Notes: generated by a model from the letters alone, not told the origin. Positions 23,620 to 53,194 are shown, counted from the first letter of the stretch. The stretch: 62,879 nucleotides of DNA from Thermoplasmata archaeon (GCA_038880255.1 JAVZSA010000004.1:1-62879); one strand, 5' to 3'. Translations and numbers: made by a program.

Positions 23620-23914
23620 AACTTTGTAATTGAGAAATGAAAATTTATTTTTATAACATACTTTGAAAAAAATTATTTTTTATTTAGAATATTTTTTTAA
23701 ATTAATATTTTCATAATATTTATCCCAGATAGCTATTAGATAGAAAATTTTATTATTTAATTAATTATAAAAATTCAATTTATTCTAATAATCATCTCAA
23801 TTTCCATTCATTAATTTATTTTTTTATGTTTATATGTTTTTCTTTTTAAATAAATTTTTTATTTTCCTCAAAATTCACAAAGATATTAAATATTTAAAAA
23901 TGATAACAAAAATC

Positions 23915-24211
23915 ATGGTAAATGAAAATGATGTGATAGAAGTTTTAAAAACTGTAATAGATCCGGAAATTGGACTTGATGTTGTAAATTTAGGATTAAT
24001 TTATGAATTAAAAATTGAAAACGATAACATCTATATCAAGATGACAATGACTACACCTGGCTGTCCCTTAACAGCATGGATAATTGCAGACACCGAAAAT
24101 AAATTAAAACAACTACCAGGAATAAAAGATGTGAAAATAGATCTTGTATGGGATCCACCATGGTCTGTTGAAAGAATAAGTGAAGAAGCAAAAAAATTAC
24201 TTGGACTTTAG
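23915..24211 (+). CDS. Metal-sulfur cluster assembly factor (DUF59/SufT/PaaD-like)
   Basis: VIDPEIG, VVNLGLIY, MTMTTPGCP, VWDPPW; ATG 23915 preferred over the ORF-track start at 23834. Confidence 0.93.
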   Translation: MVNENDVIEVLKTVIDPEIGLDVVNLGLIYELKIENDNIYIKMTMTTPGCPLTAWIIADTENKLKQLPGIKDVKIDLVWDPPWSVERISEEAKKLLGL

Positions 24212-24614
24212 CTCGACAGACTGGAACTCTCCTTGACTTGGCAAGGGGATTAAAGCGAGCAAAGTTATCTATATTTTTACTTGACGAAAAGAATGCATTC
24301 TGTATGCGGATTAAAATACCATTTCAAACAGGTAGTTAAATATAAAATGCATATCTTCAGGATAAATTATTGATTTCATCAAACAAATAATAAGAAGGAT
24401 AAGTTATGCCCTTCAGGCCATTCGGTATTTGATAAAGATATAGGTGATGCAAATAAGATAAAGGAAGAAGGGCTTTGTTTATGGAACCTAGGCTAGATTT
24501 TCCCAGATGATTATGCCTCTACAAGTAATATGATCGAATACATAAAGCATATTACTGTGAAAGTAAGCATAGCCACTGAAGTGATAGACCCTGTCCGTAA
24601 GGGCGGTAGTTCAC
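24212..24614 (+). mobile_element. Non-autonomous IS200/IS605 mini-element, copy 1 (left end, tnpA'::'tnpB remnant, omegaRNA-like right end)
   Basis: Homologous to 52832-53194. LE hairpin TCTCCTTG-acttgg-CAAGGGGA preceded by AACT; tnpA-like MHSVCGLKYHFKQVVKY; tnpB-like CPSGHSVFDKDIGDANKIKEEGL; RE hairpin CTGTCC-GTAA-GGGCGG followed by TAGTTCAC; 5' flank TTTAG. Confidence 0.85.
24293..24496 (+). pseudogene. Fused, frameshifted fragments of tnpA (5') and tnpB (3')
   Basis: 24293-24373 encodes MHSVCGLKYHFKQVVKYKMHIF, then shifts to IIDFIKQII. 24407-24496 encodes CPSGHSVFDKDIGDANKIKEEGL, a degenerate CPxC..DRDxNAAxNI. Confidence 0.72.
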
Positions 24615-24630
24615 TTAAATATCAAATATT
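24483..24630 (+). ncRNA. Putative TnpB omegaRNA/reRNA (sotRNA-like) scaffold plus flanking guide, copy 1
   Basis: Right-end block conserved with copy 2 (AACCTAGGC, ATGCCTCTACAAGTA, AATACATAAA, AAGCAT, GGTAGTTC); stem AGTAATATG/CATATTACT; 5' boundary uncertain. Confidence 0.55.
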
Positions 24631-25013
24631 ACTCTTAATTTACCTTTTGGATCTACATATAACATATGGTATGTAACTGCTTTCACATTTAACTTATTTC
24701 CATGCTTATTCCTTATGTATTTTTCCCCACAAAGTGTTGAAATTAATTTAGTATCTTGAATATTAACTTTAACCTTTGAGAAAATAAAATTCTCAGCATC
24801 AAATAAATATAAAATTTCAGAAAGAAATTTTACAAGTAGTGATTCTAAATCCATTGATGTAATTTCTATTTTTTTATTTTCTTTACATTCAATTTTATCT
24901 ATGTCAACCATTAGGGAAATTAAGCCTAATGCAGCTTCGGAAAATGCATTTTCCAGTGAATCACTTTCTATTTCAAACCCTATATCCGCTGTATGTTCAA
25001 GTATTTTAATCAT
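24615..25013 (-). CDS. Archease (RtcB cofactor)
   Basis: LEHTADIG, VKAVTYH, C-terminal FDI. Confidence 0.93.
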   Translation of the reverse strand: MIKILEHTADIGFEIESDSLENAFSEAALGLISLMVDIDKIECKENKKIEITSMDLESLLVKFLSEILYLFDAENFIFSKVKVNIQDTKLISTLCGEKYIRNKHGNKLNVKAVTYHMLYVDPKGKLRVIFDI

Positions 25014-25059: not shown

Positions 25060-25134
25060 CGGGCGCAGGGGGATTTGAACCCCCGACCTACAGCTTAGGA
25101 GGCTGCCGCCCTATCCATGCTAGGCCATGCGCCC
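25060..25134 (-). tRNA. tRNA-Arg (anticodon CCT), intronless, CCA not encoded
   Basis: GGGCGCA/TGCGCCC acceptor stem, anticodon arm GCAGC-CTCCTAA-GCTGT, T-arm GGGGG-TTCAAAT-CCCCC. Confidence 0.96.
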
Positions 25135-51876: not shown

Positions 51877-52831
51877 GGAAATCACATATAAATATTATTT
51901 AGGAGAAATGAAAGATCATATTTTCTACGAAAAACTTTCGAATATTGAAAAAAATGAAGAGTTAAAACATTCTTTAAAAAGATTATCATTGATGGAAAGA
52001 GAACATGCAAAATTTTTTTATTCAATGATCAAAGGAAAAAAGGAAAAGACACCAAAATATAGTGTTTATATCTCAATATTTTTAAGATATTTATTAGGTC
52101 TTTCTCTTACATTAAAAATCTTAGAAAGAGGAGAAAAAAAAGCAATTAGGTCTTATATTTCTTTACTTAAAGAAGGGGGAATTCCTGAACAATATAAACA
52201 ATCTCTAAAAGCAATTATAATGGATGAAATATTTCATGAAGATTTTTTTGAGCAAAATGAAAAAATTGTTGCTCAAAGAACTGAAAGAATTAGAGATGCT
52301 GTTTATGGAATGTCTGATGGTCTTGTAGAAGTGCTTTCATCCGTGGCAGGTTTAGCTCCAGTACTTTTAATCCCACTTTATGTTGCAATTGGTGGGTTGG
52401 TTGTTGGGATCTCTGGTAGTTTATCTATGGCTATTGGGGCATATCTTTCAGTAAAAGCTGAGAAAGATTATAATGATTCCAAAAAAAGACTAAATGATAT
52501 GAAATCCGAAATAACAGGAGAAAAAATGGTTGAAGAAAAAACTTATTACTCAAATCCATTGAGATCAGCATTGGACACTGGAGTTTTTTATATTATAGGT
52601 GCAATATTCCCAATAATCCCATTTTTAATTCTCAAAGGAGTAGATGCCGTTTTTATGGCCTTCCTACTAGTAATTTGTGCACAATCTATAACAAGTATTA
52701 TAATTTCATTACTTTCCGATACTCCAATAATAAAATCTCTTTTGAGAACCGTACTGCTTACTATCACAGCTGCTTTAGCTACATATACACTTGGAAATAT
52801 TATACACTCAATCCTTGGTATAAATATTTAA
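51863..52831 (+). CDS. VIT1/CCC1 metal transporter with N-terminal rubrerythrin/ferritin-like domain
   Basis: EREH and DEIFH diiron motifs; RDAVYGMSDGL, GSLSMAIGAYLS. Confidence 0.9.
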   Translation: MKSFEEITYKYYLGEMKDHIFYEKLSNIEKNEELKHSLKRLSLMEREHAKFFYSMIKGKKEKTPKYSVYISIFLRYLLGLSLTLKILERGEKKAIRSYISLLKEGGIPEQYKQSLKAIIMDEIFHEDFFEQNEKIVAQRTERIRDAVYGMSDGLVEVLSSVAGLAPVLLIPLYVAIGGLVVGISGSLSMAIGAYLSVKAEKDYNDSKKRLNDMKSEITGEKMVEEKTYYSNPLRSALDTGVFYIIGAIFPIIPFLILKGVDAVFMAFLLVICAQSITSIIISLLSDTPIIKSLLRTVLLTITAALATYTLGNIIHSILGINI

Positions 52832-53194
52832 CTCAGTGTGCTGGAACTTCCTTGTCTTTGCAAGGGGATGAATGCACGCGAGGTATTTATAATGGTACTT
52901 GAAAAAAGATTGCATTCTGTATATGTATTACAATACCACTTCATAGAGGTTGTAAGATATATAATGCATATCTTCAAGGATAGATTATTGATTTCTTCAA
53001 ACAAATAATAGAGGAATATGTTATGTCCTTCACGCTGTTTGGTATTTGATAGAAATTTTTTTTAGGTAACCTAGGCGAGACGCCCGAAAAGGAATATGCC
53101 TCTACAAGTAGCATGCTCAAATACATAAAATGTATTCTTGTGAAGGCAAGCATTGCCCTTGAAATGAGAAGCCCGGTTCGTGGGGGTAGTTCGC
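52832..53194 (+). mobile_element. Non-autonomous IS200/IS605 mini-element, copy 2
   Basis: Homologous to 24212-24614. 5' flank TTTAA; AACT then hairpin TTCCTTG-tctttg-CAAGGGG; tnpA-like MVLEKRLHSVYVLQYHFIEVVRY; tnpB-like CPSRCLVFDR; ends GAAGCCCGGTTCGTGGGGGTAGTTCGC. Confidence 0.85.
52892..53065 (+). pseudogene. Fused, frameshifted fragments of tnpA (5') and tnpB (3')
   Basis: 52892-53008 carries HSVYVLQYHF...VVRY (Y1 transposase N-terminus HsvyxLxYHxvxxvKYR) and shifts to IIDFFKQII; 53024-53065 encodes CPSRCLVFDR. Confidence 0.75.

What the first reader, a model, noticed from the sequence alone, without database searches (positions are those of the whole stretch)
24212..24614. Protein-less IS200/IS605 mini-element that keeps a TnpB guide-RNA end (copy 1)
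This 403-bp gap is a complete mini-transposon. It has a left-end hairpin preceded by AACT, about 35-40 codons of decayed tnpA, then decayed tnpB zinc-finger/RuvC-III codons (CPSGHSVFDKDIGDANKIKEEGL), an omegaRNA-like structured block and a GTAA-capped RE hairpin ending TAGTTCAC. The next 16 nt (TTAAATATCAAATATT) would be the guide. Read-through from the co-directional DUF59 gene could express a stand-alone guide RNA that loads onto TnpB encoded elsewhere.
Basis: partly seen in the sequence, partly recalled or inferred. Interest (0 to 1): 0.8.

Follow-up and report, generated by a model that had tools for sequence, protein, structure and literature searches.

The report
Decayed IS605-type mini-transposon relic
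This 403-base gap holds a gene-less, worn-down remnant of a jumping gene (IS200/IS605 type) wedged between two genes; it still carries the stretch that once made the element's guide RNA, but it looks like an ordinary inert relic.

Summary
Window 24212-24614 is one of 5 full and 3 contig-end copies of a repeat in this 1.28-Mb archaeal assembly. It was inserted exactly between the abutting stop codons of a DUF59/FeS-assembly gene and an archease gene; 6 of 6 genomes of the same genus lack it. It keeps the left-end hairpin, about 37 codons of tnpA, the last codons of tnpB (CPSG..DKD..ANKIK) and the right end TAGTTCAC.

Related copies were found in four other archaeal MAGs. One has LE + tnpA (Y1_Tnp) + tnpB. 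Another has an intact 446-aa TnpB with the same ends and the motif TTTAA next to the left end.

So it is a PATE/MITE-type deletion derivative of an IS605 element, which is a known kind. Meers et al. already state that PATEs often encode ωRNAs that TnpB would have to act on in trans.

The functional claim is not supported for this copy:
- No intact TnpB or TnpA was found in the assembly (93% complete).
- The motif is TTTAG, not TTTAA.
- A 26-28-nt deletion lies near the right end.
- 23 of 63 consensus pairs are lost.
- The fold is no better than shuffles (z about -0.2, against -3.3 to -4.3 in 11 of 12 relatives).

Expression could not be tested.

The parts
24207..24211 (+). Transposon-adjacent motif (TAM) position, here TTTAG. 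Its last three bases are the stop codon of the DUF59 gene.
   Evidence: sequence. 11 of 14 distinct left-end junctions in five genomes have TTTAA, 1 ATTAA, 1 CTTAA, 1 TTAAA. The window copy differs at the last base.
24212..24292 (+). Left end (LE). It contains the subterminal hairpin 24229-24248 (CTCCTTG ACTTGG CAAGGGG, with one T.G), a TATA-like TTATCTATAT at 24265-24274 (inferred promoter, untested) and a T5 run at 24274-24278.
   Evidence: Alignments. Nt 1-55 of the LE are 96-98% identical to L037 and L024 for sister copy C2. DNA fold (z -2.59).
24293..24403 (+). Remnant of the first ~37 codons of tnpA (Y1/HUH transposase), with a frameshift (4-nt deletion) and a stop.
   Evidence: translations; the middle of copy C2 is 86.5% identical to L041:1099-1224; the L041 ORF scores 80.4 bits on Y1_Tnp; same place E 3.4e-29, with one TGA inside.
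24404..24496 (+). Deletion junction, then a remnant of the tnpB C-terminus (second CxxC of the zinc finger and the RuvC-III DRD motif). It is mutated to CPSG..DKD and stopped by TAG at 24494-24496.
   Evidence: 83% identity over 183 nt to L037:1210-1460. The same junction is present in 6 of 6 copies that cover it.
24404..24614 (+). Block homologous to the 3' end of tnpB plus the right end, which is where a TnpB guide (omega) RNA scaffold lies in characterised elements. It is decayed in this copy.
   Evidence: Alignment A3. Fold z -0.24 and -0.12 here, against -3.27 to -4.3 in 11 of 12 copies from other genomes. 40 of 63 consensus pairs are canonical, 11 gapped, 12 mismatched.
24591..24614 (+). 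Right-end hairpin (CCTGTCC GTAA GGGCGG, 24591-24606) and terminal TAGTTCAC (24607-24614). A 26-28-nt segment present just upstream in copies C2 and C3 and in the relatives is missing.
24615..24630 (+). Flank that would be the 16-nt guide (TTAAATATCAAATATT) if an omega RNA were made. It is antisense to the stop codon and last codons of the archease gene (24615..25013, minus strand).
   Evidence: It has no second genomic site with TTAA or TTAG directly upstream at up to 2 mismatches.
52832..53194 (+). Second copy of the same mini-element in the window. It follows TTTAA (52827-52831), whose TAA is the stop of a VIT1/rubrerythrin gene, and ends 3 nt before the stop of a convergent V-ATPase subunit I gene. 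It lacks about 35 nt of the tnpB remnant.

Best explanation
Window 24212-24614 is an old, decaying, non-autonomous deletion derivative (a PATE or MITE-like element) of an IS200/IS605-family insertion sequence of the tnpA+tnpB type.

One internal deletion fused codon ~37 of tnpA to the second CxxC of the tnpB zinc finger. That left LE + 5' tnpA stub + 3' tnpB stub + RE. The roughly 400-nt derivative was then spread to at least 5-8 sites. By inference from the IS608 and ISDra2 paradigm, this was done by a Y1 TnpA supplied in trans, through single-strand 'peel-and-paste' insertion 3' of TTTAA with no target duplication.

The copy studied here landed exactly between the abutting stop codons of two convergent genes, after the species split from its sequenced congeners.

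It keeps the DNA that in the parent specifies the TnpB guide-RNA scaffold. This retention is most simply an accident of where the deletion fell, because sister derivatives in other genomes keep only 59, 83 or about 150 nt of the same end. The segment has since drifted. In this genome, as assembled, it has no TnpB to load and no TnpA to move it. It is most likely inert.

Shown: identity, copy family, parentage, insertion site, decay. Inferred: mode of transposition, promoter, lack of function.
For: - Copy family in the genome: 5 full and 3 contig-end copies. The identical tnpA-tnpB junction is present in 6 of 6 copies that cover it.
- Empty site: in 6 of 6 genomes of the same genus the DUF59 and archease genes abut or overlap at their stops, with no element between them.
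- Parents: the pattern scan found 14 loci in 4 named archaeal MAGs. L037 carries LE, an intact 446-aa ORF and RE. It scores 30.5 bits on PF01385 (equal to the cut-off) and 28.2 bits on PF07282 (cut-off 26.3), and matches ISDra2 TnpB structures at E 1.6e-8. L041 carries LE + tnpA + tnpB.
- TAM: TTTAA at 11 of 14 distinct LE junctions. The RE ends TAGTTCAC and is followed by variable flanks.
- No trans partners: no Y1_Tnp and no OrfB_IS605 hit in the own genome. tblastn with L037 TnpB gives only fragments.
- Decay of this copy: TTTAG instead of TTTAA; CPSG and DKD replace CPSC and DRD; 26-28-nt deletion; 40 of 63 consensus pairs kept; fold z -0.24 and -0.12, against -3.27 to -4.3 in 11 of 12 non-own copies. 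G+C of the block is 0.38-0.46 in the own-genome copies and 0.45-0.53 elsewhere, which fits drift towards the AT-rich host.
- Other deletion forms: at least 6 copies in G041 join LE nt 12-188 to only the last 83 nt; one form keeps 59 nt; G042 forms keep about 150 nt.
- Literature: PATEs arise from IS605-type elements by core deletion, and some keep C-terminal coding remnants (PMC3119063, passages read).
Against: - The assembly is a 68-contig draft, 93% complete. Multi-copy IS bodies are often left out of such bins.
- Contig C24 ends 45-95 nt inside a copy whose sequence follows the full-length type (LE + tnpA C-terminal remnant + tnpB 5' region; 87% identity over 113 nt to L042). A tnpB-bearing copy may therefore exist unassembled.
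- Sister copy C3 still folds well (z -3.1).
- Several blocks are invariant among the 5 diverged copies. This could reflect constraint rather than shared descent.
- The consensus structure used to score decay rests on thermodynamics of closely related copies, not on covariation (5 pairs with double changes against 2.5 expected; 40 of 500 shuffles as high).
- Expression was not testable.
Confidence: 0.8

Rival explanations
1. The mini-element is a working TnpB-less guide-RNA gene. It is transcribed from the retained LE promoter or by read-through from the DUF59 gene. Its 3' block is bound in trans by a TnpB from a full-length copy, and the complex cleaves the empty donor site (TAM + TTAAATATCAAATATT) to keep the element in place.
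For: - It has positional homology to the guide-RNA end of the parent.
- It is co-directional with the DUF59 gene and follows its stop directly.
- The LE, with a TATA-like box, is retained.
- Contig C24 hints at an unassembled full-length copy.
- The concept is stated for PATEs in the Discussion of PMC10055086 (passage read).
Against: - No intact TnpB was found in the assembly.
- The TAM is TTTAG. For SisTnpB1, which also uses TTTAA, single TAM changes other than at -5 inhibited activity (PMC11579290, passages read). This is by analogy only.
- There is no fold signal, and 23 of 63 consensus pairs are lost.
- A T5 run at 24274-24278 could stop archaeal transcription (inference).
- Other derivatives of the same family keep only 59-83 nt of the end, so retaining the scaffold is not needed for them to spread.
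Confidence: 0.1
2. The insertion has been co-opted as a spacer or 3' UTR between two convergent genes that overlap in relatives. It would act as a terminator region, or as a source of antisense RNA over the archease 3' end.
For: Both window copies sit exactly between convergent genes. In 6 of 6 congeners the two genes abut or overlap at their stops.
Against: TTTAA contains the stop codon TAA, so insertion right after stop codons is expected from target choice alone. Only 2 of 5 full copies are placed this way. There is no conservation evidence, because the insertion is unique to this genome, and there are no expression data.
Confidence: 0.05
3. The copies are not a mobilised mini-element. They are independent decays of full-length insertions that happen to look alike.
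For: Full-length relatives are themselves mostly broken: only 1 of 14 loci examined carries an uninterrupted full-length ORF.
Against: The same tnpA-tnpB junction, to the base, is present in 6 of 6 copies at different loci. Independent deletions would differ, as they do between genomes.
Confidence: 0.03

Closest known systems
PATEs (palindrome-associated transposable elements) derived from IS605-type transposons, first described in Haloquadratum walsbyi (PMC3119063; passages read) and noted in Geobacillus stearothermophilus (PMC10055086; passages read)
   Same: No protein. Subterminal palindromes rather than terminal inverted repeats. No target duplication. A short targeting oligonucleotide at the 5' side. 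Origin by core deletion of an IS605-type element. Some keep disrupted C-terminal coding remnants. The Discussion of PMC10055086 states that PATEs 'often encode' omega RNAs that would need TnpB in trans.
   Different: This family comes from thermophile-associated archaeal MAGs. It keeps stubs of both tnpA (5') and tnpB (3') in one orientation. The copy studied is degraded and has no detectable partner genes in its genome.
IS200/IS605 elements with TnpA + TnpB and an omega (re)RNA, such as ISDra2 and IS608 (mechanism recalled from the literature and partly read in PMC10055086)
   Same: LE and RE hairpins. Insertion 3' of a penta-nucleotide. tnpB 3' end overlapping a structured RNA region that ends at the transposon boundary. 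Guide taken from the flank.
   Different: The window element has no genes. The parent TnpB (L037) has Gln where ISDra2 TnpB has the RuvC-II Glu. No Rfam family matches the 3' block of the window copy or of the parent.
SisTnpB1 of Sulfolobus islandicus (PMC11579290; passages read)
   Same: Thermophilic archaeal TnpB with the same TAM, 5'-TTTAA.

Membership tests
IS200/IS605-derived non-autonomous element (PATE) | Subterminal hairpins at both ends, no terminal inverted repeats | tested here: met
   LE hairpin 24229-24248 and RE hairpin 24591-24606. The same positions are conserved in the copies.
IS200/IS605-derived non-autonomous element (PATE) | Insertion 3' of a conserved 4-5-nt motif, without target-site duplication | tested here: met
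   TTTAA at 11 of 14 LE junctions; TTTAG at this copy. The empty sites in 6 of 6 congeners fit a simple insertion between the two stop codons. The 5 copies share no repeated flank.
IS200/IS605-derived non-autonomous element (PATE) | Ends homologous to those of an element encoding Y1 TnpA and/or TnpB | tested here: met
   L037 (TnpB, same LE and RE) and L041 (LE + tnpA + tnpB).
IS200/IS605-derived non-autonomous element (PATE) | Too short or too broken to encode a transposase | tested here: met
   The longest ORFs inside are 30-48 aa. Both gene remnants carry stops and frameshifts.
IS200/IS605-derived non-autonomous element (PATE) | Mobilised as such (several loci with the same internal junction) | tested here: met
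   6 of 6 copies covering the junction share it.
IS200/IS605-derived non-autonomous element (PATE) | Excision and insertion by TnpA in trans | not testable with these tools
   No Y1_Tnp hit in the own genome. The tnpA copies found in G042-G044 all contain stops.
TnpB omega RNA (functional guide RNA) | Lies at the 3' end of tnpB, ends at the RE boundary, guide comes from the flank | tested here: met
   Met by positional homology only.
TnpB omega RNA (functional guide RNA) | Conserved, stable secondary structure | tested here: not met
   Window copy z -0.24 and -0.12, against -3.27 to -4.3 in 11 of 12 copies from other genomes. 40 of 63 consensus pairs kept. Covariation in the family is itself not significant.
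TnpB omega RNA (functional guide RNA) | Cognate TnpB encoded in the same cell | tested here: not met
   Only fragments found. Caveat: the draft is 93% complete, and contig C24 ends inside a full-length-type copy.
TnpB omega RNA (functional guide RNA) | Transcribed and processed to a discrete RNA | tested here: inconclusive
   0 reads were laid from the one metatranscriptome run, of which about 3% was read. The tool marks this as no test.
TnpB omega RNA (functional guide RNA) | Match to a curated RNA family | tested here: not met
   No Rfam match at E<=10 on 24150-24700, and none at E<=1 on parents L037 and L042. Rfam may hold no model for this lineage.
TnpB (parent protein, L037) | OrfB_IS605 RuvC core and Cas12f1-like TNB zinc ribbon | tested here: met
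   30.5 bits (equal to the cut-off of 30.5) and 28.2 bits (cut-off 26.3). ISDra2 TnpB structures match at E 1.6e-8.
TnpB (parent protein, L037) | RuvC catalytic triad D-E-D | tested here: inconclusive
   D (GIDLG) and D (FDRD) align. The Glu position aligns with Gln (IAYQND). Rearranged RuvC-II sites are described for TnpB branches, some nearly exclusive to archaea (PMC10691335, passages read).

The most novel reading that the evidence does not exclude
The mini-elements of this genome could be true 'guide-only' loci. Candidates are the better-preserved copy next to tRNA-Asp (C3:11190-11613) and perhaps the window copies. They would be transcribed from the retained LE promoter and loaded by a TnpB from an unassembled full-length copy (the one cut at the end of contig C24). 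That TnpB belongs to a lineage with Gln at the RuvC-II position, and the lineage is shared at 77-90% DNA identity among MAGs that their records name as Micrarchaeaceae, Nitrososphaeria and Thermoplasmatales. This would be a natural case of guide RNA and nuclease being carried on separate mobile elements.
Probability: 0.1. Interest if true: 0.55.

Novelty: new member of a known kind. Interest (0 to 1): 0.25.

Why it matters
If the guide-only reading were true, it would give a natural example of the modular arrangement proposed for PATEs, with the guide RNA on one element and TnpB on another. It would also give a thermophilic TTTAA-type TnpB and scaffold for study.

As the evidence stands, the value is mostly for annotation:
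- It explains a 403-bp 'gap' between two genes that overlap in relatives.
- It defines the ends, target motif and parent of an IS605 family that is abundant in several archaeal MAGs.
- It shows that retention of the guide-RNA region in such relics need not mean function.

Tried and rejected
- Rfam: no family at gathering score except two tRNAs in the window. Nothing at E<=10 on 24150-24700. Nothing but tRNA-like hits at E<=1 on L037, L042 and L005.
- DNA search of 40 relatives: 3 short hits of 29-34 nt. Two of them (L014, L015) were inspected and lie in ordinary genes. The third (L016) was not inspected. All three were treated as chance.
- Covariation: the RNAalifold covariation term was -0.16. 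The pair counts were not significant.
- Expression: 0 reads were laid from RNA run X23, of which about 3% was read. This is no test. The run guessed to be RNA (X14) and the DNA runs only showed contigs breaking inside the repeat.
- Two metagenome-contig scans found nothing. The first used the junction of contig C24 with its flank. The second used a tnpA-stub pattern.
- Second targets for the five putative guides: none with TTAA or TTAG upstream at up to 2 mismatches, except one 2-mismatch site for the C9 guide. One search was the same search with an over-long printout.
- One search failed on a frame containing a stop and was corrected.
- Supplements of the cited papers were not opened. They may list omega RNAs of PATEs and the rearranged-RuvC-II branches that would bear on the novelty and on the Gln variant.
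- The TnpB fragments on C29 were considered as the parent and rejected, because they share no DNA similarity with the element.

Full report
**Context**

The window is contig C4 of a 1.28-Mb, 68-contig, AT-rich archaeal draft genome, 93% complete. The finding lies between two genes:
- A DUF59/FeS-assembly gene: ORF 23834..24211 on the plus strand, Pfam FeS_assembly_P 84.9 bits.
- A convergent archease gene: 24615..25013 on the minus strand, Pfam Archease 134.5 bits.

A tRNA-Arg lies at 25060-25134.

**Observation**

- TTTAG at 24207-24211, whose TAG is the DUF59 stop codon.
- Element start at 24212.
- AACT at 24225-24228, followed by a 7-bp hairpin at 24229-24248.
- A reading frame MHSVCGLKYHFKQVVKYKMHIF.. 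from 24293.
- CPSGHSVFDKDIGDANKIKEEGLCLWNLG* from 24407.
- A GTAA-looped hairpin at 24591-24606.
- The terminus TAGTTCAC at 24614.
- The flank TTAAATATCAAATATT.

The stretch is repeated in the genome. The full copies are C2:41139-41501 (87% identity, E 1.8e-124), C9:2662-2989 (82%), C4:52841-53192 (71%; this is the second copy in the window) and C3:11289-11552 (72%). Partial copies are cut by the ends of contigs C39, C52 and C24. This is far beyond chance.

**It is an insertion**

In 6 of 6 genomes of the same genus the DUF59 and archease genes are convergent and abut or overlap at their stop codons, with 0 to about 8 nt between them and no element. The simplest empty site for this genome is CTT TAG|TTA AAT ATC. 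The element therefore sits exactly between the two stops.

The second window copy is placed the same way. Its TTTAA supplies the TAA stop of a VIT1/rubrerythrin gene, and it ends 3 nt before the stop of a convergent V-ATPase subunit I gene. TTTAA contains a stop codon, so this placement follows from target choice. Only 2 of the 5 full copies are placed like this.

**Parentage**

A scan of one genome per species for the invariant block TCTACAAGTANNATGNTCNNATACATAA gave 14 loci in 4 named archaeal MAGs. Their records name two as Nitrososphaeria, one as Thermoplasmatales and one as Micrarchaeaceae.

- L037 carries TTTAA, the same LE, one uninterrupted 446-aa ORF and the same RE ending GGTAGTTCAC. 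The ORF scores 30.5 bits on OrfB_IS605 (equal to the cut-off) and 28.2 bits on Cas12f1-like_TNB (cut-off 26.3). It aligns to ISDra2 TnpB structures at E 1.6e-8.
- The middle of the mini-element has no match in L037. It does match L041 (86.5% over 126 nt for copy C2). There the LE is followed by a tnpA ORF (Y1_Tnp 80.4 bits; E 3.4e-29 with one TGA inside) and then by tnpB.

The parent is therefore an IS605-type element with tnpA and tnpB in the same orientation. The mini-element is LE + about 37 codons of tnpA + [deletion] + the last codons of tnpB from the second CxxC + RE.

The junction is identical in 6 of 6 copies that cover it. One deletion product was therefore multiplied as a mini-element.

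**Family ends and target**

Among 14 distinct LE junctions from five genomes, 11 follow TTTAA, 1 ATTAA, 1 CTTAA and 1 TTAAA. The RE ends TAGTTCAC and is followed by variable bases. There is no target duplication. TTTAA is also the TAM reported for Sulfolobus islandicus SisTnpB1 (PMC11579290, passages read). The window copy has TTTAG, so it differs at the position that is A in all 14 junctions.

**Abundance and other derivatives**

The L037 sequence finds 41, 40, 44 and 4 matches in the four MAGs. Of 14 loci examined, only L037 has an uninterrupted full-length TnpB ORF. The others are broken or cut by locus ends.

Other deletion derivatives exist:
- At least 6 copies in G041 join LE nt 12-188 to only the last 83 nt.
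- One form keeps 59 nt.
- Two G042 copies keep about 150 nt.

Spread of such derivatives therefore does not require the whole 3' block. Its retention in this genome's family is most simply an accident of where the deletion fell.

**The 3' block as RNA**

In 11 of 12 copies from the other genomes, the stretch from the second CxxC to the RE folds far better than dinucleotide shuffles (z -3.27 to -4.3). The exception is L039, whose tnpB is broken by a 5-nt insertion (z +0.39).

Indels of 6, 6, 7, 7 and 6 nt among these copies shift the frame. G043 copies stop at ..EYIKRM, while L037 reads on almost to the RE. The last 100-130 nt are thus conserved as nucleic acid, not as protein. This fits an omega-RNA scaffold plus the RE.

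Direct support for a particular structure is weak:
- The covariation term is -0.16.
- 5 pairs show double changes against 2.5 expected, and 40 of 500 shuffles are as high.
- No Rfam family matches.

**State of the window copy**

Its 3' block folds no better than shuffles (z -0.24, 71 of 200 shuffles as good; z -0.12). The same holds for copies C2 (+0.44), C9 (+0.76) and C4b (-0.43). Only C3 keeps a signal (-3.1).

On a 63-pair consensus from the well-folding copies, the window copy keeps 40 pairs, has 11 in gaps and 12 mismatched. The well-folding copies keep 55-63.

Other signs of decay:
- It lacks 26-28 nt between two AGCCCC repeats just before the terminal hairpin.
- It has CPSG and DKD in place of CPSC and DRD.
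- It has a T.G in the LE stem.
- G+C of the block is 0.38-0.46 in this genome's copies and 0.45-0.53 elsewhere, as expected for drift in an AT-rich host.

**Partners**

The own genome gives no Y1_Tnp hit and no OrfB_IS605 hit. It gives four zinc-ribbon fragments. tblastn with the L037 TnpB gives only fragments: the mini-elements themselves, a broken stretch at C5:54153-54695, C9:34314-34463 and weaker pieces.

There is one caveat. Contig C24 ends inside a copy that follows the full-length type beyond the LE (87% over 113 nt to L042), so a longer copy may be unassembled. Two metagenome scans aimed at extending it or finding intact parents found nothing.

**Expression**

One metatranscriptome run from a study that holds the DNA gave 0 reads on the stretch, with about 3% of the run read. 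The tool marks this as no test.

A TATA-like box in the LE (24265-24274) and a T5 run (24274-24278) are readings of the sequence only. The putative guide has no second TAM-flanked site in the genome. It could only address the empty donor site.

**Comparison with what is known**

The element meets the defining features of a PATE: near-terminal palindromes, no inverted repeats, no duplication, a 4-6-nt targeting sequence, and origin by core deletion of an IS605-type element, sometimes with disrupted C-terminal coding remnants (PMC3119063, passages read).

The idea that such elements carry guide RNAs for TnpB supplied in trans is already in print. [quoted passage not shown]

The finding is therefore a new member of a known kind.

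**Verdict**

- Identity as an IS605-derived mini-element: about 0.95.
- Inert relic in this genome: about 0.8.
- Working guide-only locus: about 0.1.

Interest is low to moderate. The dissection is clean and the family is newly delimited, but neither the kind nor the proposed mechanism is new, and this copy is degraded.

Noticed in passing
window 52832-53194 (+): Second copy of the same mini-element. It lies between a VIT1/rubrerythrin gene, whose TAA stop is part of the TTTAA motif, and a convergent V-ATPase subunit I gene. It lacks about 35 nt of the tnpB remnant and ends TAGTTCGC.
   Followed up: yes
L037:106-1446 and all partial copies seen (L024, L039-L066): The TnpB of this family has Gln where ISDra2 TnpB has the RuvC-II catalytic Glu (IAYQND against GTEHL). 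The RuvC-I and RuvC-III Asp residues align. It may belong to one of the 'rearranged RuvC-II' branches described in PMC10691335, or it may be nuclease-impaired.
   Followed up: partly
L024-L085 (genomes G041-G044): One IS605 family is shared at 77-90% DNA identity by MAGs that their records name as Micrarchaeaceae, Nitrososphaeria (two) and Thermoplasmatales, with 40 or more matches in three of them and copies inside contigs of up to 95 kb. This suggests recent transfer between distant archaea. Mis-binning of short contigs cannot be excluded for some copies.
   Followed up: partly
L074-L080 (G041): A different mini-derivative of about 240 nt (LE nt 12-188 joined to the last 83 nt) is present in at least 6 copies with the same junction. 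L081 is a form of about 105 nt. L082 and L083 (G042) are a third form.
   Followed up: partly
G000:C3:11190-11613 (L005:1548-1825): This copy ends 4 nt from the 3' end of a tRNA-Asp gene on the opposite strand, so its would-be guide is antisense to the tRNA acceptor end. It is the only own-genome copy whose 3' block still folds well (z -3.1).
   Followed up: partly
G000:C24:1-95: The contig ends inside a copy whose sequence after the LE follows the full-length type (tnpA C-terminal remnant and tnpB 5' region). A longer element may be missing from the assembly.
   Followed up: partly
G000:C29:795-1443; G000:C5:54153-54695; G000:C37:5632-5745; G000:C3:25449-25562: Further broken TnpB fragments. 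Those on C29 share no DNA similarity with the mini-element, so they come from another lineage.
   Followed up: partly
L041:1101-1500 (G044:C25): The only tnpA-bearing copy found has a TGA in place of a Trp codon and a frameshift near its 3' end. Its tnpB has an in-frame TAA. All six Y1_Tnp matches in G042-G044 contain stops.
   Followed up: partly
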